A stretch of DNA of 49,190 nucleotides, counting the filler, from Sphacelaria rigidula (taxonomy: Eukaryota), in NCBI GenBank assembly GCA_964200075.2. It is 3 parts of 3 records of this genome, joined end to end, with 100 filler letters (N's around TTAATTAATTAA, not from the genome) between each part and the next. Parts side by side here need not be neighbours in the genome. Positions count along the whole stretch, not along the records: positions 32,873 to 49,190 come from CAXNAA020001395.1; 2 more parts are not named here. The stretch is one strand, 5' to 3'. Both the position numbers and the translations under genes were made by a program. Below, piece by piece: positions 16,438 through 49,190 of the stretch; positions within the stretch are counted from its first letter, which is position 1; each line of letters starts with the position of its first letter. The notes beneath the pieces are model-generated. The model ran no database searches, had not been told where the DNA came from, and saw only the letters and a program-made list of their open reading frames with translations.

Positions 16438-16659
16438 CAAAAACAACGGTGCCCCGTCTCAAAAGGGATGGGGGGTAAATGGTAAAACAAATAAGGAAAG
16501 CAAAAAAAAAGTACGCCCCCCCCCCCCCCCACCAACAACAGCACCTTTATTCGAAGTGTCAGGTCCTATTTATCAATTCTCGATGGAGAGGTCACCGAGG
16601 ATAATTCCCCGTCGCAAGTTTTGGGATAAGCAAGCCTCTACTGTGGAACAATCGACTAA

Positions 16660-16790
16660 CCCTTTGGGAACTAGACCCCCCTAGAGAGTGCTGATTTTTG
16701 TTTCGGGGAATCGGCATCATTTTCAAGTCAAAATTATGCCGATTCACAAAGATTCACAAAACAAAAATCAGCACTTTAGATCCCAAACGC
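16660..16790. mobile_element. piggyBac-like MITE (same family as 36450-36588)
   Basis: CCCTTTGGGAACTAG...TAGATCCCAAACGC|TTAA, closely similar to 36450-36588. Confidence 0.75.
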
Positions 16791-18478: not shown

Positions 18479-19416
18479 AGACGAGGCGATTTAGAAACCG
18501 GGTAGGGCGAAATTCGGAAGATTATTTTCCAGGTCGTTTACCGGCCCAGGTTTGGTACCTGTTCTTTGAATCCTCGTGTGGGACCTCGCTAGGCCATAAA
18601 ACCCACCAAAAAAAGTGGGGAATGTTGATCTATATATATATTTTTTTTTACTTGCTTAGGACGCTTTAGTAGAGTTAAGACCATATTTTCACGAGAAGGC
18701 CCATACCTCTGCCTCCAAAAAAAATTAAGGGTCCATTTTTTTTTCCAACATGCCTTTGCAATTCTCCATGATAAGTTTCAAATCTCAATTGTTAAAATTG
18801 AGCTGAAAAGTGAGATGAGGTCCGAAAGCGTTGTCCATTTTCCCTTGAAACCCCCCTGAAAAAACAAGAAAAAATAAGAAAAAAATGGAGAAGAACTAAA
18901 AACTATTATTTTTTTCTTCATCATGCACCAGCGATTCTCCAAACGAAATTTCAAAGCACAACTCTCAAAAACTGAGACGCAATATCCAGACTTACTACAT
19001 GAAGTGCCTCTGCTCAAATATATCGATTTTAGTATAGAACCTTATGTGCGTCATAGCTCGAGACAGATGAAGAGTTAGGCAAAAGTGCACGTATCGACCG
19101 TTTCCCCCGTGCTACAGGAAATGTCCACACCAAAAATTGTCATCATCCGCTGTATATATCGTTCGAGGTTTCATACAGACTCAAGTATGGACGCTATCTC
19201 CGTACGGTGTATAAATGACTAGACATGGGATTCAACCAACGAGAAAAAAATGGCCCAGACTTGAAAACACATGTGCACCTTCTCCATGATCAGACGATTA
19301 CTACGATATGCAGATCACGGCCCAACTCGTCTATGTCGATAAGATATGGCTTTGAGAGCTTAAATCACATTTCATCTAGGCCGGCCCTCCCAAGATGCGA
19401 ACAGGAATGGTGACGC

Positions 19417-19689: not shown

Positions 19690-21232
19690 AGCATTTTGTC
19701 GACAACCAGTTCCTGTTGTGTGTGGAAATGGACCTGCCATGAATAATTCAAACGCAATTATGCTGTTCAATTTCAAGTTGTTTTCGATGAAATTTCAACA
19801 TGATGTGCAGGACGTATGTGCGAAGACCCCTTATTACCTAATTACCCCCCCCCCCCCTGTTTTTTCTTCTTTTTCTTCGTGAGTTATTGGCAATTTTGTT
19901 CCGAAAAAACTGTTCTGGAAATTTCCGTCGCCAATACTTCACGAAGAAAAAAGAAAAAAAAACACATGAGAAAAGAATGGATATTAGCACATACGTCGTG
20001 TACATCGTGTCAAAATTTCATATTGATCGTCTCGTCTTCTACTTTCGGCCCAGAGGTCTCCACAAACTGCTCGTTGCTTCGCACACTACTACCAGACGCC
20101 TTGGCGCGCTGGGAGCCTCGTATGCGTGCATCCTTAGAAACTGCGCATGTAGTGCGACATGTGTTGTTGTACAATCGCAGCTTGTGCGGCACCACGCGGC
20201 ACAACCGACTGTAACCGAGAATCCAATTTCAGTCGTTTTTTTGGCTAATTCCGCCGCACATGGTACCCTCGACTCTCTACCTTTCGGCACTTGACTACAG
20301 TTTGGTATTTCGTTCGATGAGACCTCGTCGGATCGCAGTGCTATATGAATTTGAAGACGCGCGCTGATTTGCCGATTACCACGATATGTCATGGTAGCCA
20401 CAACCCGCGATACATCGTCAGTTAGAACGTGCTGAAGGAAAGTGTGCTTATTAGGCGGCCCTGCTCGTGGACATGGAGGTTAATCATCGAGAAAAAATAT
20501 TGGCCCAGACTTTTGGGAAGATGGGCACCTTCCCCTTGATTGGGCGATTGATACGATACGTGGACCGCGGCCCAACTTGTCTGTGTCGATGAGATGTGGC
20601 TGTGAAAGCTTCTATCCGTTTCAAGGCTGGCCCAGCTCGTAGTCAGGAGTTTGTACATTTCAAGCTCACTCCATCGCACAAGAGCGAAAAGGCTCACGCC
20701 GGTTCTTGGACGTGGACCATTGAATATTGCACCTGTATTGGACATCACGAAAAAATGAAGAACGAGGTTTTTGTGCTGGGCGTGTGATCCCCTTGAACCC
20801 TGGGACCCCCGATAACCAGCGAAAAGAAAAAAAATCATCGCTGTTCGGAAAGTTTGGTAGTGCCCGTTGGTATGTGTGCGCAAAATTTTAAGTACCTCCA
20901 AGAAACGGCGTGACCATTTGTCGAGGAAAAAAATTCGGGACATGAGCGTGAACCAGCCTGGTCCTCTCCTTCATTTCATCATGACGAGCGCACACTGTGC
21001 GTGTGAGGTCAATTCATCCAGATGTCTTCAGGGTTCTTGCTGTCTACCTTTGCGGCTGTTCATCTATCGTACCAGTAGGCTCCGAAACTGATTCCGAAAT
21101 GTCCATCATCACTTCTCCCCCATAAACCACGGGCAGCGAACCTTACGCATTTTCTTTGTCTAACCACCGCAAACCTCTCATTTATCGTTGTTTCTATCTT
21201 TGCTAATGCCGATGCTGATGTTGGTAATGCAG

Positions 21233-26648: not shown

Positions 26649-29600
26649 ATGACGTCTTTTCTGCAAAAAATTCCTCCTCCTGCTTGTTGGGCGTTCGCCT
26701 GGCAAGGTCCCGAAAAGTCGGGGTATATCATGCAATATTTTGTGCTTTGCTTTTTCTGGGGGATGGTGGTTGTATCTTCCGTAAGTTGAGGGCGTATATC
26801 ATCGCCACCCTCGATCGTGAGAACAATTTTTGGGGCGTTGATTCCCACGGGGGTGATATCCATCATCCCCTCCGATGATGGTGCTTGTGGCGTCGAAGCA
26901 CTGATCACAAGAAGGTGTTTGGAAGGGGGATGATAGCCGGGTGGGTGTTCGTTTCAGAAAGGAAATGTAAAAGGACTCCGCGAGAGGAAGCAGCGGCACG
27001 TTTGTCGGAAATGTTGACCAAGCTCACCAGGGACAAATGAGAGCTTTTTTTCTCTCGTGATATCGTTCTGTCAATTATCCAGCTCATGTCCCGTAAAGGC
27101 TTACTGCCAGTATCCTCCTTTTTTACGCTTGGCTGTTGCTTCTCTGAGAGTGATCGAAGACTTTTGCAGTGTTGAACCATTGCTAATTTTTTGCTCTACT
27201 CCTGGCGTTAACCCTTTTGGGACTGGGCCTCTAGAACGACCAACGAGGCTGGTTAGGAATTACGTGTCCTCCATATGCATGAAACAGTGGCTTCATGTTG
27301 CTGAAAATCAACGAATGTATGTAACGGCAGACTTCGATGAAGACCGAAAGTTTCATGCAACCTATTTTCAGGTACAAACTGTCTTTACTATGGTTCGGGT
27401 GTTGTACGCATCAGGCAATGTACAGATGTATCAAGCAGTATCAATCGCGATGGACACTCACCGGCCCATGTCTGGAGTTTGTGTATCGAAACTTTGTGTG
27501 GGCCGTGGCTAGGGCATAACTGACAAGACAAAGTGGGTCAGGTTGATTTTTTTTCTTGTCTTCACTGGCTTAGGGCGTTTTAATAGAGAAACGACCATTT
27601 TTTTTTTCCAGCATACCTGTATGGTTCTTTCTTTTGGGTTTCAAATCACAATTATAAAAAGTGAGCTGAAAAATTGAGATGAGCCCCAAGAGTAGTGTTC
27701 ATATCTCCTCAAAACTGCCCTACAAACGGAAAAAAAATAATGAAAGAGATGTTTCTTCTAGCTCAATTATGCACCATTGGTTCTCCATACGAAATTTCAT
27801 AGCATAACCCTCAAAAACTGAGACGCGATATCCAAATTGAGTTCATCTAGTGCCTCTGCTCGTAATATATTGATTCCAGTATAGAAACTGATGCTAGCCA
27901 TATCTCGAGATGGATAACGAATTAGGTGAAAGTGAGGGTATCCATCGTCTCCCCGTGCTTCAGGGAATGTTCACCAAAAAAAATCGTCATCCGCTGAATG
28001 CATCGATCGGGTTCCATATAGATTTTCGTGTCGACGCTATCTCCGTCAGGTATAGGAATTACTAGCATGGGTTTGATCAACGACAAAATATCGACCCAGA
28101 CTTTTGAGCAGATAGGCACCTTTCCTTGATTGGATTATTCGTACGCTATGCGGATCATGGCCCAACTCGTTGTGTCGATGAAATATTGCTTTTAGAGCTT
28201 GAACCTGTTTCTAGGCTGGCCCAGCTCGTAGTATCAACTTTTTTTTTTCGCAATGTCTCATATGAAAAAGAGGGGGGGGAATGATGTCACCGACAGGAGG
28301 TACCGTTTTCACTTATTTGCCTTGATCTATCTTGTGCTGCTGTGAGGGTCACAATCACGCGCCCAATGCAAGCTTCGATCCCTGTTTGATCACCGTTTTC
28401 CCCCTCTCCTTCGCTTCCCTTTTTGGCAGTGGTCCTAAGCCGATGTGGCGAAAGTGGGCATTTTCAGACATAATGGCAGATGCCTACATGCGAAAGCGGG
28501 AGAGCAACCACCCGGACCTGATGGCGATGGCGGCTAGTTGTGACTTCGTCTGCAAGGCTATGGGTTCTCTTTCTCAGGTGCGTTTATGTGCTGTGCGTTT
28601 CGTGTTGGATGTAGTGCTTCGTTGCGCATTCATCCAGCGTGCTGCTGTTTGGCCCTGTTCTCTGGTTTTCCTCTGCGGTTTGCGTGGGTTTGGAAAGACA
28701 GATGGAAGCAGTGCTGCTGTCGCTCTCGGATAGTGCCGGTCGGCAATCTATTTACTGTTTTCTCGTTGCGTCGTCACCCCGCTCCCCCCCTCCCCCTGGA
28801 CACATGTTTTAATTTCTCGTGCCTTCAGGGTGCAAACTTGTTGATCTTTTCTCGTGAATGCCACGCATGATTCTGAATGATTGCCCCGCCTCTTACCCCG
28901 TCAGCGCCCCCTCGGCGAGATAAACCCCTTTCGAAGAATATGCCTTGGGAAAATATACCAATATACCATATTTCTGTCGGAACCCCGGCCGTTATTTGTC
29001 TAAATTTGCGGTGGAGATGGATGCTTCAAGGGAAGCGGCGGTAATGTTTTTGCCCCGATCTCCCGTCGGAGTGATGCCAGGCCTTGTTTCTGGAGCATTG
29101 GGCGGTCACCTCCTCTCCCACCTCCGCACTTTCCATCACGCCGCGATTTCCTCGCAAAGCTTGCGCAAGTAGGATGAAGCTTAGCCCCATGCTTGGCCAC
29201 CTTGTTGCTTTTTACCCCGTACTTGGTATAAGTTATTGGGTCCGCCACTACTCAATACTGATACGGAATGAAATCTTCCGCATTTTTTTGCAGGTGACTC
29301 AAAGCCCGATTCAGCGCGCGTTGCACCGCGTTTTGGAGGAATGCGGGGAGATCTGCACCAAGCTCCGTCCTGGAGCCGGGGACAATCAAGCATTTCTGAT
29401 GGTAAGCTACTTCGCTTGTGTTTCCTTGCTTCATGTCGATTACAGCATAGCAGTCTAGCAGTTTTACCATCCATCATTAGTCTCTAATGACTTCCTACAG
29501 ACAAAGGTCAGTTTGCTGTCGAAATCCGAGAAGCCAGCGTTTCGTCTTTTGCTTGATTTTAGAGTCCGCCTATTCTGGCGTCATTTCGTTTTTTGAAGCT

Positions 29601-32772: not shown

Positions 32773-32872
32773 NNNNNNNNNNNNNNNNNNNNNNNNNNNN
32801 NNNNNNNNNNNNNNNNTTAATTAATTAANNNNNNNNNNNNNNNNNNNNNNNNNNNNNNNNNNNNNNNNNNNN
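32773..32872. other. Assembly linker/gap
   Basis: Identical 100-nt N block with central TTAATTAATTAA. Confidence 0.97.
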
Positions 32873-34233: not shown

Positions 34234-36449
34234 CCAAGGGCTCACTTTGTTCAGGGAATGTATATACCGCCCTTGGCGGAGGGTTCTCGGTGTGCGTTAG
34301 GTTGGGTCAACCCAACTAGCCTTCTTGCATTCCAGCGTATCGCAAGCGCGGACGAAAAGCGACGCAGTGGCGTGTAATAGATGAGGAACAACGGAAATGA
34401 CGGTAGGGTTCTGATTTTAGAGTGTACTTGACTTTTTCTCGATATGATTTTGGATCCATGCCGTTCTCTCCCGATGACGTGAGGCACAATTCACCCCACG
34501 AGCCTGGATAAGCCCCAGTAGTCGGTATGTTCTTGTCTGTTCGTGATATTAGCCGGTGACACTTTTCTTTTGCCTTTTTTGAGGGGGTCAGGCACGCCCA
34601 TAATGGTAGTATAGTGAAGTACGCAGCACTTTCAAACAACAGACAAGGCCGCATTGTGAAGATTTCTCAACATACCACCCATAACGGTGGTGCAAGACAA
34701 CATGATCTCTAACGGAATGGCAATGCAGCCAGGTGTGGTACTGCTTGTGCGCTGTAGACCACGAATCGTTCCCATCGTCTTCTTACAGCTGAAGCTGACA
34801 CGAGTGAGGAAGTGAACCCAAGGCAACGTCGTGTACCCGCCGTGCATTAATTTTTTCACGCAACACAACCAAGCGAATGCTGATACCATGTCGGCGTCAG
34901 GAAGGTCTTCTGATCGCGATGCCAAGCTTTTCTACTTCGTGAATAGTCCATTTGATAAGCATGGCAGTTATGATGGATTACCTACTTTGCTCGCTAGGGT
35001 GTATTGATTTTGGACTGGCCGTGACCATGGTGGTGAAGGTGGGCGTGTTTTTTTTTCGTTCCGCTATGACCTCTGAAGAGGAACAACGGTTTGCAGACTG
35101 AAAAGGTGTGAACGGCACTATGACGCTGAAAAAATCGCTCTGAAAAAAAAATCAGAGTGGAATGTGCACCATTACCGGCTATTTTTCCTTCCCCTTTGAC
35201 TCTGAGATACGAAAAAACGTTTTCCAAGACTCTCTATCATCAACAATACCTGGGTATGGAGTATCACCCGGTTATGACCTCAATACTACCCAATTTCAGG
35301 TGAAGTTCGGTATGATTTCAACAACCTACCCAAACTAGTGGTAAGCCGCGGCTGACGCACGTGGTAGCAGTGCCGTAAGTATCAAGTATCCCGCGGCCGA
35401 TCTGGGGTGCGTGGAGGTTTCGAACTACAAAGCGAAGAACAAACAAATGATCCTGGCACTAGCCATAACTTATCGATAATATAAGATAAGAAATTCCAAT
35501 CCCACGGCTAACCGTGACCACTACGAAAGAAGAAAGGAGGACTCATCGTTAGGGATGCTCATGGGCGGGTCGAGGGGGGGGGGGGGGGGGGGGGGCGGTG
35601 TTTGGCCTCCGAAGAATGTCCGGGCTTTCGGGAAACATTTACCGAAGACGACCACTTGTTCGTTTCCTTAGATGCACTTGATTCTAGACTACATCCTTGA
35701 CAGGCGGAAATTTTGCATTAAGGTGACGCCCCCCCTCTTCAGACGCCGCACACACCTACACACCGCCGACACATTTTGGGGTTGGACCGCTTTTCAAGTG
35801 CTTCTCAAGGTTCCCGTCAAAAGCTACATTTTTTTCAGGGTATGCCCATTGTGGGGCATACCCTGAAAAAAAGGAGGCTACATCCGATTGCATTCCAATT
35901 CAAAGCACACTGCGCGAAAGGAGCGCTCGAATCGTATATGTCGCCGAGGATAACTGGGGGGTCAAAGTCGGTCCCTCAGAGGAGTCTCCCGAACAACCCT
36001 CCGTCCTCAACAAAAGCAAGAGGAAAAATAGCACAGAGAGTAGTGGGGAGGAAACGTCGGAGGGGAGGTCTGAGTTGATGGGTGAGTATGGGCCTGTGTG
36101 AACCGAACAAAAATGAGCACGTCGTGATGATGATAATGATTCTGTTTTTTTCGTGATTTATTCATCTTTCGTCCTTCCGATTGGTTGCCCGCCAGCTGTC
36201 AACCAACAATAATGTAGACCCGGTCCAACCGACGCCATTTTCGAACCCACCCGCGCAGAAGAGAGGGGGCACACCATTTTGTACCCACTCGCGCACGAAA
36301 GAGCCGGTAGATAGCGCAGGCCACGGCACGCACACCCACAACACACCTCACACGCGCACATACACAGACCGACTACCACTGGCTAGCGGAAGAAGCCAAG
36401 AGATCATACAACTGAGAACGGCTCAACAAAAAACGCACACGAAAGGAAA

Positions 36450-36588
36450 CCCTTTGGGAACTAGACCCCCAGGGGGTGCTGATTTTTGTTTCCGTGAATC
36501 GGCATCATTGTCAGTCATTTTCAAGTCAAAACAATGCCGATTCACAAAGACCCATAAAACAAAAATCAGCACTTTAGTTCCCAAAGGG
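36450..36588. mobile_element. piggyBac-like MITE
   Basis: Perfect 14-bp TIR CCCTTTGGGAACTA / TAGTTCCCAAAGGG|TTAA with internal GAATCGGCAT / ATGCCGATTC arms. Confidence 0.8.
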
Positions 36589-37580
36589 TTAACCCAAACA
36601 TCTACCTTGTTTGAAGGAAAAGAGATTCAAAACCGCATGACTCTTGCTTTTATATCCATACCGACTACAAGGCCGGAGTGTGTTCACCGTTGTTCCTCTC
36701 CATCATTTAGTTTGCGGGTGGCCGGGAGGGGGTTCGCCTCTACGGTGAACACACAATAACTGTTCTGGCATGATGACCGAAGACGCGGGGATGATTGAAC
36801 AAAATCAAGTATTTGAGTACATGGATATATACACAGTACGTACATGTGTCTTGATTCAAAGACAACAGTGCAACAGTGGTCTCGAACACCCGTACACAGT
36901 ACCTCCCGTGCAGTGCTGTCTCTACCACAGTCTGCACCACACCGTCCACTACTACTGCCTGTATTGGAAACGATGCTGCGCGGTGTATGTTCGCTGCTGT
37001 GCTGTCATCCCATCTACTTTGGACGCCAGTTACACCTTTTCCCGATATATTAAATATGATGAGGGAGCATCAGCCGGGGTCAATCAGGAGGACGGCAAGT
37101 TTTTTTTCTTGTGTGTGTGAGGAATTAACGGTAAGTAATTGACGAAATGAACACTGGAAACAATGAAAATGAAGATAATGATAAACGTGGTATTGATCAC
37201 TTTCAAGAGGCGGACGCGGCCGCGCGCAACACCGCGGGGTGACGGCGGGGTTGGATACTGCACCACCAGCGACAATAAAAGAAAGAGGGCTCCCCGCGTA
37301 GAAATGCTTTGAGGTTTTTGTTCAGCTACGTTCACCACACCTTCATCGTCTTAATTCAATTTCAACTACTATACTGCACGTTCGAAACTCATAGGGTAGG
37401 GAGGTGAATTATCCTCGTTCTCTCTTCTCCGTGTACTACTGTTGTTATCTCTGCGTAGTTCGGGTGATGCAGCGACGACTACGGGTATGAGCGACGAACC
37501 AAACATGGTACGAAAAAAATGGAAAGGAGGCCGATAGATCAGCTGGTAAAGGCGGCGACGGTCCCATGGGTACGGGTCAA

Positions 37581-37665
37581 ATTATATAACGCATACACTA
37601 TTTTCAAGTAATTCAATTTAAATTATTTGCAGTCCCTCTACATTATATAACGCATTATATAACGC
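37581..37665 (+). repeat. Three copies of ATTATATAACGC just inside the left end of the Dada-like element
   Basis: Exact 12-mers at 37581-37592, 37642-37653 and 37654-37665. Confidence 0.85.
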
Positions 37666-37955
37666 AAACTTGATTTTAGTATAGACTCCGTCACACTTGT
37701 GTTTACCGGTCTTCTGGTCCCCGCAGCCACAGTACAGTACCGTGCTGCCCGTGCGGTATCCAGGAGAAAGAACATTGCCGCAGCGCAGTACCTAGGACAA
37801 TGGTCTCCGCACAACTGATGTTTTGTTTATTCTTGTGTGGGATAGTGTACCCAACGTTCGTTTTGAGCGTCGCCGTGCCCGGCGTGGGGTTGTGCTGGCC
37901 CGCGTTGATGTTGCAGAGTCCATTTGGTCTTGGCTTGCTGCTACTTGCTCTACAG

Positions 37956-40900
37956 TGCAGCTTTGGAGACGGTGCCAGCAGGCAAGAAGCACCACCGACA
38001 CCGACTCCAACACCTAGGTTCATACCTGCTACTAACCCCTATGCTCCAGGAGTACCGTCGAGCAGGAAGTCTCCCAATCCCAAAAAGTCTGCGCGCAGTA
38101 ATAAGGGCAGGTCGAAAAGTAGTGCTCCCAAAACTGCTACTGGTAGCACTAGCAAAGGCGGCCGCCCACCTGGGGTGCCCAATGCACCTAGGACCAAAAG
38201 GGCCTGGTGCGAACAAAGATGGAGGTTCACAGCAGAGTTCGTTGCGCAGCTTTTTTTCCAGTGGCAGCGATGATAACGCAGCGGGCGATGGTTCTCGAGC
38301 AATGCGGGCGGATACGGAAGGGCAGGAGGGATCATGTTCTGCTTCAAGCTGCAGAGAGAATCCAGGGCAAGGCGCAAGTGCAGGAGACGGAGCAAATGAC
38401 GGCGGAAAGAGAGAAAAGAGGAATGCCAATGACGGGGGGGAAGCAGGAGGCGGCGAAAGGCGTAAAAGAAGCGGCGGCTACGGTGGCAGCACCGCGGAGC
38501 CTGCAGCGCTCGAACGCAGTAGTGCAAGCAGCGGTACAGGTGCTCCCGGAAATATAGGACCATCGCTACGCCTCTCGCAAGTCCAGTCTGCATGGGTACG
38601 CGAGGTCAAAGCTAAGGTGGACGCAAGCTTTGCGCACGAGCGTGGGGGCGTTGTGAAGAAAGATTCTGGCAGGTTCCCGTATAACGGGGGATGGGCTATT
38701 CCACCGCTGCCTAGTGCGCAACAAGGCTCAGGTAGGACATAAAGGTTCGACACCTGTCCGTTTGCGGAAGCCTAAATATAAACAGTACACGAGTATTTCC
38801 ACAGTAACCACGTTCTTGCCCACTCTGTGCAAGAGTGCGATGTGCGTATGTTATCGTATCACCGATTGGGCACCTTCTAGGTTTTGTTGCTTGCACTTGA
38901 TGCTTTCAAAACGCGCAGAACTTCACCATGTACTGTGTTGAGCTTGCCATCTGTAAAGTATTTTGCAAATGTAAGCGTACAAGTGCTCACCCTCTGTGAC
39001 CTCGCTTCTACTGTTCGCCGTGCTACCTGTCCCCAGGTCCGCCGCCCGTCAACCCCTTTTATCTAAAAAGGGTGTTTTTGTGGATTCCTGAATTCATCTG
39101 GCCCGAGATCAAGCACATACCTTGCCCCACTTGTGGAGGTGCTGGGGCGTCGGACGGTTGGAACCGGCAGCAGCCGAGACGAGTTTTTCTCGAGGATGGC
39201 ATCTGCTATCTCACAGGCTACAGGTACAGCGGAGCGGTACGATAGGCGTGAGGGGTTTCTGCGTTGCTTACTTTTGAAGAGCTTGCTTCTCGTGCGTTGG
39301 TGTGCATCTTCGAGGGATGATGAATGATTCAACTACCGATTTTCTGTGCTCCCGCTGCATCGTTCATATGTTTGATATACCTGTGATACGTGCAAGAAGG
39401 CGAACGGCGACAAAAGACCGACTGATCCCGGGTACAGAAATTGGTCATTTAACGCTTGGGACGACGGGGTGTTGGCTCGCCTGCCTCCTTTCATCGCCAA
39501 CGAATTCCCCTTCATCTTGACAAGGAAAAGTGGCATTTCCAAGGCCGTAGTGGATCGCTTAACGGACGACTTGCTCAATGGAAAGGGTTTTTCGGCGGCA
39601 GCGAGATTTATTGCCCAGTCTCACCACACGACGTACATGGACCGGTACAAGAGCTATATCCACCTTGCCAACTATCGCAAGAACAACATCCACGGGTTCT
39701 TCGAACGACGGGGAGGGGGTGGAAGTGTGCCAAAGTTTGGGGGGTTCGGCGACAGATAGGGCTTCAACTGCGCCGTCCCATCAGATGGATATCTACGAGA
39801 TGTATGGCGTCGGTGGTTCCACGACATTCCCGTCATGCATGTGAGTAATGTTTTTTCCTCGGCGTACGAACGACCGATATCGCGGTAATTTTCGTTGCCC
39901 TGCTGCGACTTGAATTTTCTCCCGCATAGCCAAGGTCCATACGCTGTCGTGCTCACGATTTGATGCCATCTTCTTGCCGCCCAGTCTCAAGTTTCCGTGG
40001 CCGCGCTGTTTCAGGTCGATGGCCGCAGTTGGACCAGAGAGGAATACATCCAACGTAGGGGGCAAATGATGGATGGAGTCATTTTGGCAGGTGACGCCTC
40101 CTTCAAGTATGCCAAAATCATCCGGCTAGTGCCTGGATACGGGTTGCAGCATACGCGACCTATCCACGGAATCTTCACCATCATGAACGAATACGAACAG
40201 GTGACGCTTCCTTTCTCATTGACTTGTGTCGTTTGTGCCAACTTCCAGCCGGTCAGTAGCTGTTGCTCTGCTGTAAACGTCTCGTTTCACACTATGCCGC
40301 TAATATCCAGTTGAACACGGTACACAATTTTTTGTGGTGTCGAACTACACGCTTTTGTGCAGGTTGTGTTTCAGAAGGCGATGAAAACTGCATCTGTACA
40401 TGATCTCAAGAACGACCTCAAAAGCCTCTTCGTCAACCGCTACATAGGACATGGGTTCAAGCTACCGGTCTTGTTTAGCACAGGTGATAAAATGTCAAGG
40501 GGCATTTTGTGTTGCTCGAGTATGTGTTTCTTGCTGCCACTGTCCAGCTTTGGGGGGAAATTGTATTTGATTTTGCTCTTTCGGTGCTGGCAATGTTCGT
40601 TTGACGGCTGTTGACACAACTACGTTTCCCCCGTCCGCTGCACAGACGAGTGTTGTCAGGATCGTCTCATGTTCGTGGCTATGTTCCGGGAGATCGAAAT
40701 TGAGACGGGGGTTCGGTTGTACGAGGCAGAGGAAGAAGACGTGAGCCACGAACGCGCACCTCTGCCCGCGCTAGCACTACCAGATGATCCCGAAAAGATC
40801 CCGGTCGTCGCTTGGGATAAGGACGCCATCAACCATGCGGTGATCCAGCTCCGGCGTGGGTGCGAGAGTCAGGGAAATGTGTTGGGAATGGACTGCGAGT

Positions 40901-43900
40901 GGGAGCCATCGTTTGATGGAAGCCCAGAAACTCCGGTTTGTACAATCCAACTTGCCCTACCAGACGGCGCGACGTTTTTGTTTCACTTGCAACGTGGTGT
41001 AATCAAGACAACCACTGCCAATTTCAACGGCGCCCTCAAAAACCTGCTAGAAGATGCCGGCATCGCAAAGGTGATTATGCAGTATGCGTTCTAACGTGCC
41101 ATCCTTTTCCACCATGGAGCGCCTACGTAAATGGTGGTGACTGTCAACATGAAGATTTATATCCGCTGTTCGACCCTTGTTTTTGCCTCACTTCATTTTA
41201 GTGTATAACATTTGTCAGGTCGGGGTCGCTATCAAGGCCGACGCCACACGCCTGGAAAAACATTACGGCGTCGAAACTGCCAACGTACTGGACCTTCGCT
41301 CGTACGCGCGATCATGCTGGGTGACTGTGCTACCTCGAGGCCTTGCGGGGATGGTGCACGCGGTGTTAAAAAAGACCCTCTCGAAAGAGCCGGCCGTGCG
41401 TTTCTCTGTGTGGAGCGGCCGTCAGCTCAGCACTGCACAGGTGAGATTTGCTTGAGAGCCACCGCGAGGTACCACAAGTGACGCGTACTCGGTGTTTTTG
41501 CTGTTTCTTGAACAATGCTCCTGTCATCACGGATATCCTGCTCTTGCTGCCTCCATTTCCCCCCCTCCGTCGCCGTTGAAGGTGAAATACACCTGCTTAG
41601 ATGCGTATGCCTCCGTGCTTCTCTTTCAAGAGATGGGAAAGTTCAGGGACTCCATCCTGAACCCTGCTCCCAACTGTTTAGAGTCCGGAGTGAAGGTAAG
41701 AAACTTTACTGCGTAATTGTCCATTTTGTGCGAGGTGTAAGGTTCTGTCGGCGCGTTTTGTTCGTGCCCACACTATTGTCTAAGTTTACATCACTGTTCG
41801 TCCTCTCTCTTGAAAAATCATCATCCAATATCCTAGGTGAGACTCTACACCAAGAATCACGCCGAGTGCGTGGGTGTGGGCGAGGTTGTCGTTTCAGATG
41901 ATGCCGACAGGTGGCTTCAGCTGATGCATGGTACGGCAAGTAAACTCCTGACGCTTCGGGGGATACATAAGCAGCAGGTGCGGGTGGTGGTTAGAATCAC
42001 GGAAGCCCTCCGACCAGAAAAGTACACACTGCACAAAGAATATCCTCCGGCGGCAGCGTCGGACTCCGCGCGACCAACCGTGAAGGAAGTGAAGGATGGC
42101 GACGGATTTACCCTGTGGGATGTGGCTCACCTTCGCCTCCTTTCGGACCACAGGCCCTTCACGGGTGCAGCAAACGCATGCGATCCACATGTGTCGAGTG
42201 CTTACACCGACGGTGACTTCTTCGAGCAGCTAATACTACCACCCCGCGTCGTACGTCTAGGTGAAAGTTCATGATGATGTTAACACGATTGTCTGTATCC
42301 CGTCACACACTCCGGCTGCCCATCGCCGCTCTTGACGACCTTTGTTTTGTAACTCTCGCTAGCACGTCTGTTTTCTTGGTTCCACAGGGGATGACAACGA
42401 CGATGATGATTATGATGACGCGGACGACTATGAGACGTGGTCAGACTTCTCTGACAGCCGGGGCAAGCTGGACTGCAGCAACGAAACTGCTGATGCTGTG
42501 GCTAACGAGGTCCGTCTACTCACTCTTGCGACGTGTGTATATATATACACATATTTCTTGCGATCTGAGTTGCGTTTCCGGCCTCTCTTCCTCTGCTCGA
42601 CCTCATTTATCGCGTGCTGTGGTTCTTATTTTGCGACACGGTTGAACAGGCTTATGGAGAGAAGGTGTTTTCAGTGCGCCTCGACCTATTCCATGCGCTG
42701 AATCGCATCTCTCGCGTTATCAAGAAGAAGCATGGCGCGTTCCGGCCGTTCATGGCACGCCTTCGCGATGCCTGTTTTCTCATCAACAAAGAAGACATTG
42801 AACAGGCAAGTACCACTACCTGTATGTATCGTGCGCCGCGCATCCATCCTTCAATAGCTTCCTTCTCTTGATCGTTGATAGAGGTTTGTCTCATCAATTT
42901 TCCAACCGCTCCTCCGACCCAGGTGGAAGAAATGCTGATGAAGCGCGGCTGTAGTGCTGATGAGGTGGCAAAGATGAAAGAAAGGGATTGGTCCTTCTTC
43001 CTCAGGCACTGCCGCCGCCGTGTACCGCCAAGGGATCAGTTACTGGAGCGATTTGACAAAGCTGTTGAACAGTTCGGTTCTGTCGTGGACAGCGACTCCG
43101 GAGAGCCACTACTTCGTCCCATTGGCAAGGCGGCTGTCGATAGGCTGCGCAAGCACATTGTTGCGGGCTGTTTGAGCGATCCAGACGGCGTGGCAATGTA
43201 CTATTCAACGGGCAAGACCCGGGACGGGCTTGCTAGCTTTCGCTGTGTGCGGGGCACCAATGCCACTGAGGTGAGAACGTAGACACACCTTTTTTTCATT
43301 GACGGCGGAGCTGCCAAGCTGTGGTAATGTCTGTGTGTCGGCTCAGTTATTGCTAGCTGCATTTTTGTTACCCCCGTGAGAAATCATCGAAGAACATCCA
43401 CTACTGGATGCATTTTGTTATGTATGCTTGCGTTGGAGATGGTTCCAACAACAGAGACGCCTCTTTCGCGCACTTTTGCCTTTCCGTGTCATGACACCAG
43501 GGCTATCATCGCTATCTGCGGACCTTACTCGCTTCGTGCTGTGCGTCTCCGGCGATTGCGCATTCCATCCTGCTGGAGTTTAATTATCGGTGGAACATGA
43601 GGATGGCAATGGCAAACAGATACCTACCCGAAGAATACGGGGGGCACTTCAACCAGTTCGACATAGAAGTCGTTCAGCGTGTGACTGACCAGTGGTACCC
43701 AGACAGCCCTCTATTTCCAGACTGGCCTGCTGCTATCGATTGTGTAGACACAGGGGAGAGAAGTGGGCTTGCTCGAAGCGTGTGGGGTGGGGGAGGAGAG
43801 GGTTCGGAGGAGGGAATGAACTTAATTCAGGAAGGTTTTATCGGGGAACTCCGCGACATTGGTAGCATTCGTGAGCCGGTGCCGTTCGCAAGGCTCACCC

Positions 43901-44751
43901 ACTCCACCAAGCTCTACGCGAAATTGACAGGCGCTGGTCTGCCGGAGCTCCCGGTGGCCACGCCGGCAGAGAAATGGAAGTTTGATACAGAGCTGCGGCA
44001 TAACTATTTCCAGCACGGAGATCTCATGGGGAGGCAGCAGGTGTATCAACGTCTCAACTTTGATGCTTGGGCTGTGAAATGGAACGAACACTGCTCCAAG
44101 ATTGAAAAAGGCGTGATACCGCACGAGAATATCAACCGCAAGACAGCGAAGCAGCTGGAAACGTACTACGAGGAGTTCAAGACTCGGGTAAATTGCACGC
44201 TGACGATGCAGCCTGTCAAGCAAGGGAACGCCAACCTCAGAGCTCAGCTTCAGATTCCGGCGCCGCCTGAGGATTTTGCGGACTCTGTAAGCCGCGCGCG
44301 GCCTTTGCCTCTTCCTCGCCGTCAGACCTGGCAACAGCAGGGTGGGTCGACCTCACAACGGGAGGGTGAACCGTCTGGGAGCAACCCCGGGATAGTAGTT
44401 GGCGTAGGGGGGACTGCGGAGCCAAAATCTCCTGTGCCAGTTGCGGGAGGAGGTGCCGCCGGTGGTTCGAGTAGTGGAAACGCCAGCACAGCGAAGAACA
44501 CCGCACGGCGGCGAGGGCAGAAAACCTGTCAAGAGTGCGGGCACTTCAGTATGATCGGCATTTACGCCAGGAATCATCACCCCAGGCTCGGCAGCGGTTG
44601 CAGTGTAGACGAAGAAAAAAAGAGACTTGAAAACGAGAGGTTGGGCAGGAAAGATCGCCGCTATAGCGACAAATGCATGTTCCTCCCATGCGATTGTGAT
44701 GACTGCCGGACTGCTTTAGCTGCGTACAATGCGAAATTGAAGGGAGACTGA
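37956..44751 (+). pseudogene. Dada-type DDE transposase with inserted DEDDy 3'-5' exonuclease, spliced, disrupted
   Basis: Exons ~37956-38731, 39037-39223, 39375-39840, 40015-40200, 40363-40483, 40646-41070, 41219-41440, 41582-41695, 41837-42260, 42388-42509, 42650-42805, 42923-43270, 43501-44751, all phase-consistent from 39037 on. Motifs: CPTC..CDTC; D1 in LAGDASFKYAK (40093); D2 in FSTDECCQDR; DLFH (42683); E in RGTNATEGYH (43268); C-terminal CQECGH. Lesions: in-frame TAG at 39757, TG instead of AG acceptor at 39373-74, and a probable frameshift near 38195. The start codon is uncertain. Confidence 0.85.
40800..41640 (+). other. DEDDy (DnaQ/WRN-like) 3'-5' exonuclease domain within the transposase
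   Basis: Exo I VLGMDCEWEP (D 40891, E 40897), then TIQLA, Exo II KVGVAIKAD (D 41240), W..RQLSTAQ and Exo III KYTCLDAY (Y 41588, D 41600), spread over three exons. All catalytic residues are present. Confidence 0.9.
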
Positions 44752-45212
44752 GTGCGTGTTTTGGTCAAAGTATCTATAGCTCTTTCTCCACGGTCATATT
44801 TTCTGGCTAAGAGAATGATGTGTCGCCCTCGACGGCACATTTATGGGTTTCATGTGTAGGATGCTCTGAACGTGTGTAACATGACAACTTACGAGTACAG
44901 TAGTATTAAATATGTAGGATTGGCAGTGTAAATGAGGAGTTTCGGGTTTCATGAGTAGCACAAGAATAAGTACATCAGCTCCAGTATAGTAGCACATGTA
45001 TGTTGGGTTGTGGTCCCTCGCTCTGCGTGTACTCTAAATATTGGTTTTTCTCGTCTGTATTACCCATACATGCGGTATCCAATGCTTCCTGGAGTCGGCA
45101 TCCCATCGGAGGTCGTACATGTTTCTATCAATAATTGATGATGAGGTGATGACTGAGGTATCTATGTTTGACAAATAGTTTACACGGTCATTTCTACACA
45201 CATATATTTATT

Positions 45213-45645
45213 CCGACATCCACAGGCACATGCACTTCGCTTGTCATGCACAAACGCGGTGGTTCCACACGTGCGCACAGCACACGCACACAGCATGGGC
45301 GCCTGGCGCTGGAGAATGGAGCACGACACGGCCTACGCACGTGGATATTGGCCCCCAGGGTTCTCCCGTTTTAGTTTGTAGTTGATCTTGAATGTACTGA
45401 CTCGAGTACTCATGTTTCACGGCTACTTTGCGCCTTCTATTCTATACGCTATATACTTCTAGTGCGCAAATGTTTTTAGTATGCTCTTGTTCCGACATCC
45501 ACAAGGAATATCGCATTTCGCTCACCATGCACAAACGCCGTGGTTTCACACGTGTACGCAACACATGCACACAAGATGAGTGCCTGGGGTCAGGAAAATG
45601 GAGCATGGCACGAGCCATGCGCGTATAATTTGGCCCAGGGCTCTC
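45213..45645 (+). repeat. Diverged ~150-bp direct repeat pair inside the right end of the Dada-like element
   Basis: TTCCGACATCCACA..CATGCACAAACGC.GTGGTT.CACACGTG..AATGGAGCA..GGCCC..AGGG.TCTC occurs at ~45213-45365 and ~45490-45645. Confidence 0.8.
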
Positions 45646-46294
45646 GCGCTTCGCGCGAGAGTTTAATTATTTTATAACGACCCGTACCCATGAGCTCGGT
45701 GCCTGGCAGGTCGATTGAAGCAAATATGAGAAAACGTGGTGAGAGGCGAGCACACGCCACTATAGCGACCGTGTGCTAACTGCGTGAACGAATGGGGTGG
45801 CCTGGCTCTGGAGCCATTTACAGCTCTTTTAGCGGACGATTGATGATAAAATCGTACTTAGGGTGCCACCTTTGAAGTTCAGACCAGCTACTTGTACAGT
45901 CACCGCTTATATTGCACATACTGTACTGTAGTCCTGCTACTACAGTATACTGTTGCACTCCCTGCCCGTTCTCTCGGGGGAACGCTTCAACTCTCCTTCT
46001 ACAGTGTTATTGCCGTAGTACCGTACCACTGATCTGGGCGATCTCTCAAGGGATGACAGCAAGCTTGTTAATTACCCTTCTTGTGCGGTAATTGTGCCTT
46101 GTCGACGCACAATCGCGGTGTAGATTATTGTGACTGGTGCTTCAGAGAGGGCTGACAACCAGAGCTGAGGCGAGCTGCTGGATGTGTTGCATGACAAGTT
46201 TGTTGGAAAAAATATGCCAGAATTTTGACTCGGATCCACCCCAGTCCAAACAGTCAGGCATATCTAGGGAGGGGCCAGGCCTGCGGTCCTTTAA

Positions 46295-46393
46295 CCCTTC
46301 GACCGCGAGAGTAGTCTTTCTGGAATCATGCACACTTTTTTTCACTTGAAATTGATGCCGATTCAACTGAAGACTAACCTCGCGGTCTGAGGG
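46295..46393. mobile_element. piggyBac-like MITE (same family as 8001-8107)
   Basis: TTAA|CCCTTCGACCGCGAG ... CTCGCGGTCTGAGGG|TTAA. Confidence 0.85.
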
Positions 46394-49190
46394 TTAATCC
46401 CACTCCAAAATCAAGATTTCCGCTGTCGACCGTCCAGGGACTTTTATCCTCCACTTACTGACCAACCTTCCTTCGATCATCCCAAAAATGATCAACTCAT
46501 GTACAGTAGATAAACTGTGCAAGCGATGACTGACAACGGAGAAGGTAGTATAAGCGCAGAGGTCTTGCCTTGGATGGAAGGAAAACGATTTTGAGAGCAG
46601 CCTGAACGGAAAGCAGAGCGCGCGACTGACGGCAAAAAAGTTGTAAAAGATGAGGAAGCTGCAACAATAATCGCGCGGTTGGAGTCGGGAATTTCTGACC
46701 CCAACAAACGTGAGTGCGACGGTCCCGCAACTCCGACATCCTGTACGGCCCCTGCCAAACAAGATCTTCTCTTGCTCTCCCGACACCATCTTCTCTTGGC
46801 AGTAACAGAACCTCCTCTATCGCTTCCTAAGGGATTCGATGGTTTCCTCCACATCATTCCGGTGGTGTTTACTCAATACCACTCTCAAGAAAAGAAATCG
46901 TTCGCTCGACGACGGCAAGAAACTTGAACTTACAACCTGACCACAGGAGTAAAAGGTTTTTTCATGGAGCTCAAAGTACGGGCTTCTGTCATCACGTTTG
47001 CGGGTACGATGTCATCGACCGCGTCGGTTTCGCTGATACTTGTGCTTGTGGTGAGATCCGCTGACTGGACCAGATTCCCAGAGTAACGACAGTCAGTAGT
47101 TGCGCCGCCCGCGTGTACAGTACAAGAACTGGTCCGCCAGATTCAACTTACAATCTACATCATCCAACTAATAATACATCACGGCATGCAGTCAACGACA
47201 GTGGTTTGACGTGTCCTTTCCACTTACATGGCAAAATATTCCACAAGTGGGCTGCTTTCCCTGCTTTCCCCTGCTGCAGCAGCCGCTTGGCAACGCGTTG
47301 CAACCGTCGCAGGTCTGGTGTCAGTAACATGTTTCGATCCAAATTTCCACCGACACCGTTTGCACTCTCTGCTCACTGCGCCGATCCCTCCGAATTGAAG
47401 CGCGAGGGTGCCCGGAGCGCTCACCAGAGTGGAAAATAGCGCCCATACCAGTGTTGTCCAGCACACCATGCAAGAGCGGCACCCGAGCGCACTGCTGTCT
47501 GTATTGCTGGTGTCCACTATACTGAGCAAATGCTATACAATTTGCAATCAATAGACTCGAGCATTCTTCGAAATGGAAGTGTGTCATTTGCCAAGCAGCT
47601 GTATTTTTGGTCGTGTTCTATTTTCGGAGGTTCAAATCTTTGGATACATGAATTTTTGGTCGTGTTCTTGTGGATCCACAAGAACAGGGCGAATACTGGA
47701 AAGATTTGTTCATGGGGACGTTTTTTGCTGAAAAGATTCATGTGAACTGTTGTGAACAAAGGGTATGACTCTTGCAGCTAGAGTTGCTAGAGTCATACCC
47801 TTTGGTTGTGAATCCTGAATCATAATAATATGCATGTGTGAGCCAATGCGCTTGACTTTCAGCGTAGTGTGCCCTTGTGATTTTCCCCCGAAGGCCCCAA
47901 TCACGTACTACTCGTGTTATCTATATTATGGCGATCGACTCCAGGGAGGTTGTTGTTTGACGTGTTCGCGGGCATGTAGTGATCGTGGGGCAAAGCAATG
48001 GCACGCAGCTGCTGATGCTTTCATCCAGACCGACCCTCCGGATATACACCACGTAAACAGACGAAATTGAAGCAGAAAGTTGTTAATAGTGTTTTTGCAA
48101 ATAGCACGGCAGTTGATCGTCCAGGAAAGCGAGAAGGCAGCGCCACGAGCAGAGGTGACCATCAGCCGTCATCCTCTATCCCGCGTTTGAGGGCACCACG
48201 TCGCCGAGCGGCGCCCATGGAAAGCGTAGCGTGGATAAATCAGATATTTGTTCTGATTCCATTCATGGTCCGTGTGTATGTGTGCACCGAGGGGATTCTC
48301 CAAGCTAACCCAGCCCCATCCGCATACTCTGGGGAGGTATATCCCACCTGTGCAGGAAGACACCACAAGCTACCGATTGATTTGTACCGAGCCGCGGTGG
48401 GCTGTGAAGATTATATACTAAATATCAAACAGATGCGCCCAAGATCGCAGCCTGCGGTACCCTGGGCTCGTAGTACAGTGCGCCCATCTATGCCGCCGCT
48501 TTCCCAGTGATCGTTGCTATGCTGACTGTTCCGTCATTCGTGAAGAAAGACGTTACACGAGGCTATAGATTGAGAGCGCCTACGCGTCACCACACAGCAC
48601 CAACTATGTGACTCTATTACACATCACCAGGAAACTCACAGAACCAATTTGTTGACGTATTGGTGAAATTTATCGTGTTGGTGTGACGGGCAACACCAGT
48701 ACAGTACAGTACAGTACAGGGAGTAGTACTGTCGGACTGTCCGTCATGAGGCGGCAAAATTGTGTCATGCATGGTGCAGAAGACGCCGGGCCCAGAAATA
48801 AGAAAATTACATCGACTCCAGAAATTAGATTATTTTACGGCTGTGAACTGGCGTCTCTGGTCAGTTTGACCTGGTCGCGCCAGCGGCCAGTTAAAAACTG
48901 ATGTATTTTCCCAGTTAAGCAGCGTCGCCGGTTAAATAAATGGCGACACATCAACGGCGAGCAGTGAAACTGCGAGCCTCAACGCCCCCCCCCCCCGGCT
49001 GGTTGAGCGGCAAGAAAAAAATGCGATACTTAGCTTGTGCGCTCACTTGAAAAATATTTCCCTATCGTGGTGTCTATAAACCTGTCACGAGAAAAGACAA
49101 CGTGAGTCATCACTAGTTGGGGTCCTAGGGCTGAAGCTCTCAGGAGCAGGGCGGCGCGTGTACTGCGCCAAGTTGATAGGGGGTTTTAGT

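What the first reader, a model, noticed from the sequence alone, without database searches (positions are those of the whole stretch)
37526..45720. Empty site rebuilds a tRNA D-arm / Pol III A-box
Seen: the left flank is ..AGGCCGA-TA-GATC-AGCTGGTA and the right flank is CTGGCA-GGTC-G.. Collapsing CTGGTA/CTGGCA as a 6-bp TSD gives TA-GATC-AGCTGG(T/C)A-GGTC-G. That is a 4-bp stem (G-C, A-T, T-G, C-G) with an 8-nt AG..GG.A loop, the geometry of tRNA positions 8-26. No anticodon arm or GTTCRA T-arm follows, so the target is an A-box mimic or decayed tRNA, not a working tRNA gene. Inference: specificity may come from reading the A-box sequence or hairpin itself rather than from Pol III machinery.
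Basis: partly seen in the sequence, partly recalled or inferred. Interest (0 to 1): 0.75.

Follow-up and report, generated by a model that had tools for sequence, protein, structure and literature searches.

The report
Dada transposon in tRNA-like site
An 8-kb Dada-type DNA transposon of a brown alga sits inside a short stretch that looks like the first third of a tRNA gene, which fits this family's published habit of aiming at tRNA genes and is a modest extension, not a surprise.

Summary
Between them, at 37549-45702, lies an 8,154-bp Dada-superfamily DNA transposon. It has a multi-exon DDE transposase on the + strand with an inserted DEDDy 3'-5' exonuclease. Its closest relatives are Ectocarpus, Hapterophycus and Laminaria proteins. 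It has no terminal inverted repeat but carries a 14-nt sub-terminal one.

Dada elements are already known to make 6-7-bp duplications and to insert site-specifically into tRNA and snRNA genes, often inside the A box (PMC3706591, PMC8869645). The 5/6 duplication CTGGTA/CTGGCA is at chance level on its own. The tRNA-like left flank and the D-stem continuation on the right are not.

No tRNA is called on the rebuilt site. The hairpin is unstable as DNA, so sequence reading is more likely than hairpin reading. The target was a tRNA 5' stub or mimic.

Only one copy could be examined because no eukaryotic DNA collection was open. The exact ends, and whether this is a family-wide specificity, remain unproven. 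The insertion register (tRNA nt 16-21, not the published 8-13) and the brown-alga lineage would be new.

Verdict: new member of a known kind.

The parts
37528..37548 (+). Left flank, tRNA-like nt 1-21: acceptor-like AGGCCGA, T8 A9, D-stem GATC, D-loop AGCTGGTA
   Evidence: sequence; the pattern has 2 hits against 0.05 expected; 14/21 identical to the decayed tRNA-like locus at 7047, P about 1.3e-4.
37543..37548 (.). Proposed left copy of the target-site duplication, CTGGTA (tRNA nt 16-21)
   Evidence: It matches the right copy 5/6, which is chance level on its own.
37549..45702 (+). Dada-superfamily DNA transposon, 8,154 bp.
   Evidence: The size lies within the 4,666-10,979 bp given for complete Dada elements (PMC3706591).
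37565..37578 (+). Left sub-terminal inverted-repeat core CATGGGTACGGGTC, 16 nt inside the proposed end
   Evidence: I1: 25 nt, 80%; only 2 matches in the window at <=2 mismatches, 0.28 expected; score 29 against a null maximum of 28.
37581..37667 (+). Three sub-terminal direct repeats ATTATATAACGCAT/A, likely transposase-binding sites (inference). A TTATAAAA relative adjoins the right repeat core.
   Evidence: D3, D5.
39000..39756 (+). N-terminal zinc-finger region (two exons) with CPTC (39123) and CDTC (39382), matching DUF6729
   Evidence: DUF6729 at 18.5 and 25 bits, below the cut-off of 27 because the domain is split by an intron; coordinates.
39757..39759 (+). In-frame TAG where homologues have Q or E, so this copy is probably inactive (or the base is an error)
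   Evidence: FGGFGDR*GFNCAVP against ..DRQGFNG.. and ..DKEGFNG...
40081..40116 (+). First catalytic D motif, ILAGDASFKYAK
   Evidence: this column is D in 43 of 44 relatives.
40642..40665 (+). Second catalytic D motif, TDECCQDR
   Evidence: D in 49 of 49.
40756..41674 (+). DEDDy 3'-5' exonuclease inserted in the transposase (three exons): MDCEW, LDLRSY, YTCLDAY
   Evidence: PF01612 at 21.1 bits on one exon. P0002 reaches 56.9 bits. D 54/54, E 54/55, Y 58/58, D 58/58. WRN exonuclease 2e6l, E 6e-13, TM 0.86.
42677..42706 (+). DxxH motif, RLDLFHALNR
   Evidence: D 58/58, H 57/58.
43244..43530 (+). Catalytic E motif split by an intron: CVRGTNATE (43244-43270) and GYHRYLRTLL (43501-43530)
   Evidence: E 56/56, H 55/56.
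43498..44751 (+). Last exon, with the C-terminal CCHC-like finger (CQECGH at 44527) and the stop codon
45208..45651 (+). About 280-bp tandem duplication in the 3' sub-terminal region (45208-45371 and 45487-45651, 76%)
   Evidence: D1, D2, D9.
45679..45692 (-). Right sub-terminal inverted-repeat core, 10 nt inside the proposed end
45703..45713 (+). Right flank: proposed duplication copy CTGGCA, then GGTC-G (tRNA nt 22-26)
   Evidence: the pattern is rare, 3 hits in about 98 kb.

Best explanation
The 8,154-bp insert is a Dada-superfamily cut-and-paste DNA transposon of the exonuclease-bearing lineage known from Ectocarpus and Laccaria. Its host is a brown alga or a close relative.

Its DDE transposase recognised a short double-stranded DNA sequence that looks like tRNA nucleotides 1-26 (acceptor stub, A box, D arm). 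It cut inside the D-loop and left a 6-bp duplication, CTGGYA, at tRNA nt 16-21.

The target was not a working tRNA gene. It was a tRNA 5' stub or a chance mimic of the motif the transposase reads. Recognition is by primary sequence, not by a DNA hairpin and not through Pol III factors.

What is shown: the element's identity and the tRNA-likeness of the flanks. What is inferred: the exact ends, the duplication and the mode of recognition. This copy carries one in-frame stop and is probably no longer autonomous.
For: Element identity:
- The closest proteins are Ectocarpus and Hapterophycus products carrying PF01612, and Ectocarpus sp. 8 and Laminaria products.
- tblastn lays their motifs on + strand exons in the order D, D, exonuclease, DxxH, E, CCHC. 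That is the arrangement PMC3706591 (read in full text, parts 1-3) describes for Dada of Ectocarpus and Laccaria.
- The catalytic columns are conserved in 58 relatives.
- The P0002 model has D97 on a strand, D176 after a strand, and D572xxH and E725 at helix starts.
- The exonuclease matches WRN exonuclease.
- There is no terminal inverted repeat but a 14-nt sub-terminal one.
- The element has introns, and 8.2 kb lies in the published size range.

Target:
- Searches show the flanks are tRNA-like beyond chance.
- The literature gives 6-7-bp duplications, tRNA targets and hot spots at the A box, with occasional insertion into non-tRNA look-alikes (PMC8869645 sections 3.1 and 4.2).
- The hairpin is unstable as DNA.
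- The transposase reading frame is nearly intact. The insertion is therefore fairly young, and a full tRNA on the right side should still be recognisable if it had been there. This last step is inference.
Against: - Only one copy could be examined.
- The duplication is imperfect and at chance level by itself.
- The sub-terminal repeats lie 16 and 10 nt from the proposed ends, whereas PMC3706591 reports equal distances for Dada-U6 and Dada-U1.
- The published A-box-targeting lineages duplicate nt 8-13, not 16-21 (PMC8869645).
- No tRNA model scores either flank, even at E<=10.
- The exact 19-nt D arm occurs in no tRNA among its 12 matches in 185,579 prokaryotic genomes.
- A faint B-box-like word (6/9 at +43, P about 0.05) hints at a decayed whole tRNA rather than a mimic.
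- The left flank resembles the left terminus at a borderline level (p=0.064). This would fit an extra, decayed end copy.
Confidence: 0.6

Rival explanations
1. The tRNA-like pieces belong to the mobile unit. They would be relics of an ancestral target that the element carries along, and the true junctions lie further out. The 'rebuilt D arm' would then say nothing about this insertion site.
For: - PMC8869645 section 4.2 and PMC3706591 report that Dada-tA and Dada-tY insertions carry 'replacement' flanking hexamers, thought to be ancestral target sequence transposed with the element.
- The distances from the proposed ends to the sub-terminal repeats are unequal: 16 and 10 nt.
- The left flank resembles the left terminus at a borderline level (p=0.064).
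- A 9/11 direct repeat, AGGCCGATAGA / AGGTCGATTGA, lies outside the proposed duplication.
Against: - The published carried-along sequences are 6 bp, not 21 plus 11 bp.
- The 9/11 repeat and the flank-terminus similarity are both within chance.
- No further inverted repeat was found outside the proposed ends.
Confidence: 0.15
2. The left flank comes from a real tRNA gene or pseudogene and the right flank is unrelated DNA. The two were joined by one-ended or aberrant transposition, or by a later deletion. On this view, CTGGCA-GGTCG on the right is a coincidence.
For: - PMC3706591 describes 8 of 12 Dada-tL_DR copies with the target tRNA on one side only, and proposes one-ended transposition.
- Beyond nt 26 the right flank shows no similarity to the tRNA-like locus at 7047 (9/60).
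- No tRNA model hit was found on the right flank.
Against: - The right-flank pattern (at least 5/6 of the duplication followed by a 4-nt D-stem complement) is rare: 3 hits in about 98 kb. That is about 1-2 in 1000 over the plausible end positions (my arithmetic).
- The weak B-box-like word sits at the right distance.
Confidence: 0.15
3. The tRNA likeness is chance. The element inserted without target specificity and the reader chose the register that looks best.
For: - The duplication alone is at chance level.
- ARAGORN and Rfam call nothing.
- The rebuilt 19-mer is not a tRNA D arm in any of its 12 prokaryotic matches.
Against: - Searches show that a 14-nt A-box/D-loop pattern abutting the end of a member of a tRNA-targeting superfamily is far rarer than chance.
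- The register is fixed on the left by where the tRNA likeness stops.
Confidence: 0.1

Closest known systems
Dada-1_ES (Ectocarpus siliculosus) and Dada-1_LB / Dada-2_LB (Laccaria bicolor), Kojima & Jurka 2013 (PMC3706591)
   Same: [quoted passage not shown]
- An intron-containing gene and a brown-alga host.
- The closest database proteins are from Ectocarpus.
   Different: - Identity to the Ectocarpus proteins is only 38-64%, so this is a different family or species.
- The paper names no target for Dada-1_ES. Only elements with clearly definable termini were assigned targets.
- I could not compare termini, because Repbase, the figures and the supplements were not available.
A-box-targeting Dada lineages: Dada-tY, -tK, -tN, -tR, -tS of fish and Dada-tIA, -tIB, -tY, -tG of Perkinsus marinus (PMC8869645, PMC3706591)
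   Same: - Site-specific insertion inside the 5' part of tRNA genes, within the Pol III A box.
- A 6-bp duplication.
- Recognition attributed to primary DNA sequence.
- Occasional insertion into non-tRNA look-alikes.
   Different: - Those lineages duplicate tRNA nt 8-13 (for example TAGCTC followed by AG). Here the proposed duplication is nt 16-21, in the D-loop.
- Their transposases lack the exonuclease insert.
- Their targets are intact multicopy tRNA genes. Here only nt 1-26 are tRNA-like.
Dada-U6 and Dada-U1 (PMC3706591)
   Same: No terminal inverted repeats but short sub-terminal inverted repeats, and a 6-bp duplication.
   Different: - Their sub-terminal repeats are 7-9 bp, lie at equal distance from the duplication, and recur in the target gene.
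- Here the core is 14 bp, lies 16 and 10 nt from the proposed ends, and has no significant copy in the flanks.
Elements that find tRNA genes through Pol III factors (TRE5-A of Dictyostelium, cited in PMC3706591; Ty3 of yeast, recalled)
   Same: They associate with tRNA genes.
   Different: - These are retrotransposons that land at a distance from the tRNA gene through protein-protein contacts.
- This element sits at a fixed position inside a tRNA-like sequence that has no working gene around it.

Membership tests
Dada superfamily (Kojima & Jurka 2013) | DDE catalytic triad plus a DxxH motif after the second D | tested here: met
   The motifs are present in window exons. Across 58 relatives the columns are D 43/44, D 49/49, DxxH D 58/58 and H 57/58, and E 56/56. 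Their placement on the secondary structure of the P0002 model fits an RNase-H-like core. The fold search was dominated by the exonuclease and did not test the DDE fold itself.
Dada superfamily | N-terminal CCCC zinc finger and C-terminal CCHC zinc finger | tested here: met
   CPTC (39123) and CDTC (39382) lie within the DUF6729 matches. CQEC-(12 or 13 residues)-H-(7 or 6 residues)-C starts at 44527. The spacings differ somewhat from the zebrafish positions quoted in PMC3706591.
Dada superfamily | 6-7-bp target-site duplication | tested here: inconclusive
   CTGGTA/CTGGCA matches 5/6, but 28 such pairs occur near the ends against 25.2 expected. Support comes only from the D-arm rebuild. There are no other copies to check.
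Dada superfamily | No terminal inverted repeats; short sub-terminal inverted repeats | tested here: met
   A 14-nt core lies 16 and 10 nt inside the proposed ends, with nothing inverted at the very ends. The distances are unequal, unlike Dada-U6 and Dada-U1.
Dada superfamily | Site-specific insertion inside a multicopy small RNA gene | tested here: inconclusive
   The flanks are tRNA-like for nt 1-26 but are not a tRNA gene. With a single copy, specificity cannot be shown.
Dada superfamily | Direct sequence homology to a named Dada transposase | not testable with these tools
Indirect support: the nearest proteins are from Ectocarpus, with the architecture the paper describes. The Atlas lead points to Basidiomycota and Mucoromycota clusters carrying exonuclease plus DUF6729, and to a Chordata DUF6729 cluster at TM 0.46.
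Exonuclease-bearing Dada lineage (Ectocarpus, Laccaria) | DEDDy DnaQ-like exonuclease between the second D and DxxH, with all catalytic residues kept | tested here: met
   25 of 26 long relatives carry PF01612 and 16 of 26 carry DUF6729 at E<=1e-3. Those 26 are P0002 plus 25 of the 150 listed hits, which I picked for length.
tRNA gene (as the target) | Cloverleaf with anticodon arm, T arm and acceptor pairing | tested here: not met
   - ARAGORN found nothing on the rebuilt site at any of the five option sets tried, including lowered score thresholds.
- Rfam at E<=10 found nothing on either flank.
- No acceptor complement or T arm lies nearby.
- Only a 6/9 B-box-like word is present, at +43.

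The most novel reading that the evidence does not exclude
Brown algae harbour an exonuclease-bearing Dada lineage whose transposase reads the tRNA A-box/D-arm DNA sequence and cuts in the D-loop (nt 16-21), eight bases downstream of the register used by every A-box-targeting Dada described so far. It can do this at isolated A-box look-alikes with no tRNA gene around them. That would show that neither Pol III factors nor a complete tRNA gene are needed for targeting.
Probability: 0.25. Interest if true: 0.45.

Novelty: new member of a known kind. Interest (0 to 1): 0.35.

Why it matters
Dada is the one DNA-transposon superfamily reported to have strict specificity for multicopy small RNA genes, and it has been proposed as a basis for targeted gene delivery (PMC3706591).

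Targets are documented for fish, a few invertebrates and Perkinsus. In the papers I read, the exonuclease-bearing lineage of brown algae and fungi has no assigned target. A verified tRNA-D-loop target in a brown alga would extend tRNA targeting to that lineage. It would also add a second insertion register within the A box.

An insertion into a 26-nt stub would help delimit the footprint the transposase needs. On present evidence (one copy) it is a lead, not a result.

Tried and rejected
- **Other copies in the window.** There are none. The 14-nt core has only its two matches, the rebuilt 19-mer has no match at <=3 mismatches, and the self-BLAST shows no second copy.
- **Other copies elsewhere.** A scan of genome contigs (prokaryotes only) with transposase profile A1 gave 26 pattern matches, none confirmed. 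The flank logo and the empty allele therefore stayed unchecked.
- **Is the rebuilt D arm a bacterial or organellar tRNA D arm?** It has 12 exact matches in genome contigs and 0 of 12 lie in a tRNA. My arithmetic puts chance at about 9 matches.
- **tRNA remnants nearby.** One B-box word lies inside the element at 38744, as expected by chance. The acceptor complement TCGGCCT has 5 hits against 5 expected, none of them placed suitably.
- **Hairpin reading.** The DNA hairpin has +1.1 kcal/mol. The minimum free energy is -0.5 and -1.3 kcal/mol, against shuffles at -2.2 and -2.6.
- **Flanks as extra decayed end copies.** By eye they looked similar to the terminus. The alignment test gives p=0.064 and 0.098, so I did not accept this.
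- **Flanks and the locus at 7054 as one repeat family.** They share only unrelated small repeats with TTAACCCTT ends.
- **Symmetric ends.** Placing both ends 10 nt or 16 nt from the repeat core gives no duplication (my reading).
- **Pfam on 63 ORFs outside the element.** Only weak kinesin fragments were found, and nothing in the immediate flanks.
- **Literature.** 'DUF6729' gave 0 papers. 'Dada transposons' plus 'exonuclease' gave only the 2013 paper and one unrelated paper. 'Dada' plus 'brown alga' plus 'transposon' gave one relevant paper, PMC12477816. I saw one passage of it: a table listing 1 Dada family, 15 copies and 1 intact copy in Ectocarpus, with no target.

Full report
**1. Observation**

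In tRNA numbering:
- T8 is at 37535.
- The D-stem 5' strand GATC is at 37537-37540.
- The loop AGCTGGTA is at 37541-37548.
- On the right side, GGTC-G supplies nt 22-26.

ARAGORN and Rfam (gathering thresholds) find no tRNA anywhere in the window.

**2. What lies between the flanks**

*Coding content.* Stop-to-stop ORFs on the + strand carry pieces of one multi-exon gene. Pfam gives DUF6729 on two exons and the 3'-5' exonuclease family PF01612 on another. All three matches fall just under the curated cut-offs because introns split the domains.

*Nearest relatives.* The 418-aa last exon finds three longer proteins, all with PF01612:
- P0001, Ectocarpus sp. CCAP 1310/34: 38% identity, 98% coverage.
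- P0002, Hapterophycus canaliculatus: 68% identity over 24%.
- P0003, Ectocarpus siliculosus: 64% identity over 15%.

A near-length search adds five proteins, among them one unnamed at 71% identity, Ectocarpus sp. 8 (50%) and Laminaria digitata (45%). The host is therefore a brown alga or a close relative.

*Motif order.* tblastn of P0001-P0003 against the window lays out the exons. With it gives this order:

| Motif | Sequence | Start |
|---|---|---|
| Zinc-finger pair 1 | CPTC | 39123 |
| Zinc-finger pair 2 | CDTC | 39382 |
| First catalytic D | ILAGDASFKYAK | 40081 |
| Second catalytic D | TDECCQDR | 40642 |
| DEDDy exonuclease | MDCEW, LDLRSY, YTCLDAY | 40756-41674 |
| DxxH | RLDLFHALNR | 42677 |
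| Catalytic E, split by an intron | CVRGTNATE / GYHRYL | 43244 / 43501 |
| CCHC-like finger | CQECGH | 44527 |
| Stop codon | | 44749-44751 |

*Match to the published family.* This is the arrangement Kojima & Jurka describe for Dada (PMC3706591; I read the main text, parts 1-3 of 4; figures and supplements were not available):
- a DDE triad with a DxxH motif;
- an N-terminal CCCC finger and a C-terminal CCHC finger;
- introns, and a length of 4.7-11 kb;
- in Ectocarpus and Laccaria only, a DEDDy exonuclease between the second D and DxxH.

*Family size and architecture.* A library-wide phmmer search with P0002 finds 4,783 representatives at E<=1e-3 and 182 at E<=1e-30. I picked 26 long members. 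Of these, 25 carry PF01612 and 16 carry DUF6729.

*Conservation of catalytic columns.* In an alignment of P0002 with 57 of the 150 listed hits, chosen by length, the catalytic columns are nearly invariant.

*Structure.* An AlphaFold model of P0002 on that alignment has pLDDT 77 and pTM 0.63. It puts the first D on a strand, the second D just after a strand, and DxxH and E at helix starts. Its exonuclease domain matches WRN exonuclease (2e6l, E 6e-13, TM 0.86). The fold search did not reach the DDE core.

*Atlas look-alikes.* These are leads only: fungal clusters with exonuclease plus DUF6729, and a chordate DUF6729 cluster.

*A likely inactivating change.* One in-frame TAG at 39757-39759 replaces a Q or E of the homologues. 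This copy is probably inactive.

**3. The ends**

- No terminal inverted repeat exists.
- A 14-nt core, CATGGGTACGGGTC, is inverted at 37565-37578 and 45679-45692.
- It is followed inward by palindromic TTATATAA-type repeats.
- This matches the 'sub-terminal inverted repeats, no TIR' description of Dada-U6 and Dada-U1.
- No other copy or fragment of the element is in the window.

**4. Is the rebuilt D arm more than chance?**

*At or near chance:*
- The duplication alone. 28 pairs of 6-mers with at least 5/6 matches lie within 60 nt of the two ends, against 25.2 expected.
- A rival 9/11 direct repeat, AGGCCGATAGA / AGGTCGATTGA.

*Beyond chance:*
- A structural D-arm descriptor occurs once in the rebuilt window, at the junction, against 0.365 expected over the whole rebuilt window.
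- The left-flank pattern TRGNNNAGYTGGTA has 2 hits against 0.05 expected.
- The other hit of that pattern, at 7054, heads a decayed tRNA-like unit. It has a B-box-like word 7/9 at +44 (P about 0.007) and a T-run at 7129-7137. Neither ARAGORN nor Rfam calls it.
- The Dada left flank matches the first 21 nt of that unit 14/21 (P about 1.3e-4). The right flank does not match it at all (9/60).
- The right-flank pattern, at least 5/6 of CTGGTA followed by a D-stem complement, is rare: 3 hits in about 98 kb.

I conclude that the target carried tRNA-like nt 1-26.

**5. Beyond nt 26**

The likeness stops after nt 26:
- ARAGORN finds no tRNA on the rebuilt site at any of the five option sets tried, including lowered score thresholds.
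- Rfam at E<=10 finds nothing on either flank.
- No acceptor complement or T arm lies nearby.
- Only a marginal B-box-like word is present, 6/9 at +43, P about 0.05.
- The exact 19-nt D arm matches 12 places in the prokaryotic genome collection, none of them a tRNA.

**6. Mechanism**

The published view is that Dada transposases read primary DNA sequence:
- Insertions are at fixed positions inside targets.
- Related lineages have similar target words.
- Five fish lineages and four Perkinsus families duplicate tRNA nt 8-13 within the A box.
- Occasional insertions hit non-tRNA look-alikes, and flanking hexamers are sometimes 'replaced' (PMC8869645 abstract and sections 3.1 and 4.2; PMC3706591).

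The present case fits that view. As DNA, the D-arm hairpin is unfavourable (+1.1 kcal/mol) and the site folds no better than shuffles. A hairpin-reading mechanism therefore has no support.

Because the transposase gene is almost intact, the insertion is probably young. An intact tRNA 3' part should then still be visible if it had been there. This favours a stub or mimic as the target, but it is inference.

**7. Rivals**

- The tRNA-like pieces may travel with the element.
- The right flank may be unrelated DNA joined by one-ended transposition, as for 8 of 12 Dada-tL_DR copies in PMC3706591.
- The whole likeness may be chance.

None of these can be excluded with one copy. The borderline similarity of the left flank to the left terminus (p=0.064) and the unequal end distances keep the first rival alive.

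**8. Comparison and novelty**

The element is a member of a known superfamily, and tRNA A-box targeting by direct sequence reading is already in print. Three things would be new:
- a target for the exonuclease-bearing brown-alga lineage, for which the 2013 paper assigns none;
- a D-loop register, nt 16-21;
- insertion into a 26-nt stub.

My literature searches found no report of a target for brown-alga Dada. The Ectocarpus TE survey PMC12477816 lists 1 Dada family with 15 copies and 1 intact copy; I saw that one passage only. Supplements of the Dada papers and Repbase could bear on this and were not visible.

**9. What stayed unchecked**

Noticed in passing
window 16338-16437 and 32773-32872: There are two identical joiners: 44 N, TTAATTAATTAA, 44 N. 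These are six-frame-stop scaffold linkers, so the window spans at least three contigs of a scaffolded assembly.
   Followed up: partly
window 7047-7137 (+): A decayed tRNA-like unit. It has acceptor-like GCCCCGG, the A-box/D-loop TGGCTCAGTTGGTA, a B-box-like GGTCCGAACC at +44 and a T-run at 7129-7137. Its D-stem 3' strand is lost right after nt 21. ARAGORN and Rfam do not call it. The word GATAGATC directly precedes it and also occurs in the Dada left flank.
   Followed up: partly
window 39757-39759: An in-frame TAG in the transposase where homologues have Q or E. Otherwise the exons read through.
   Followed up: yes
window 46291-46405, 7870-8111, 7622-7635, 36494-36548: Small repeats of about 100 bp with TTAACCCTT...AAGGGTTAA ends and an internal GATGCCGATTCA palindrome. 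They look like miniature inverted-repeat elements and lie near both tRNA-like loci, but are unrelated to the Dada element.
   Followed up: no
window 45208-45371 and 45487-45651: An approximately 280-bp tandem duplication (76% identity) lies inside the 3' sub-terminal region of the element.
   Followed up: no
window 18736-19364 / 27599-28203; 110-499 / 20066-20468; 16658-16796 / 36448-36594: Dispersed repeats of 72-84% identity, unclassified. No Pfam domain was found on ORFs there.
   Followed up: no
window 1037-1372 and 13404-14015 (+): Weak kinesin motor-domain fragments (15.6 and 21.9 bits, below the cut-off of 29.3). They may be exons of a host kinesin gene.
   Followed up: no
window 5905-5989: A microsatellite of GTGCTT units.
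   Followed up: no
window 37468-37518: By eye, the left flank holds two degenerate look-alikes of the left terminal sequence (GCGACG...CATGG-TACG and TACGGGT). The alignment test gives p=0.064, so this is not established.
   Followed up: yes
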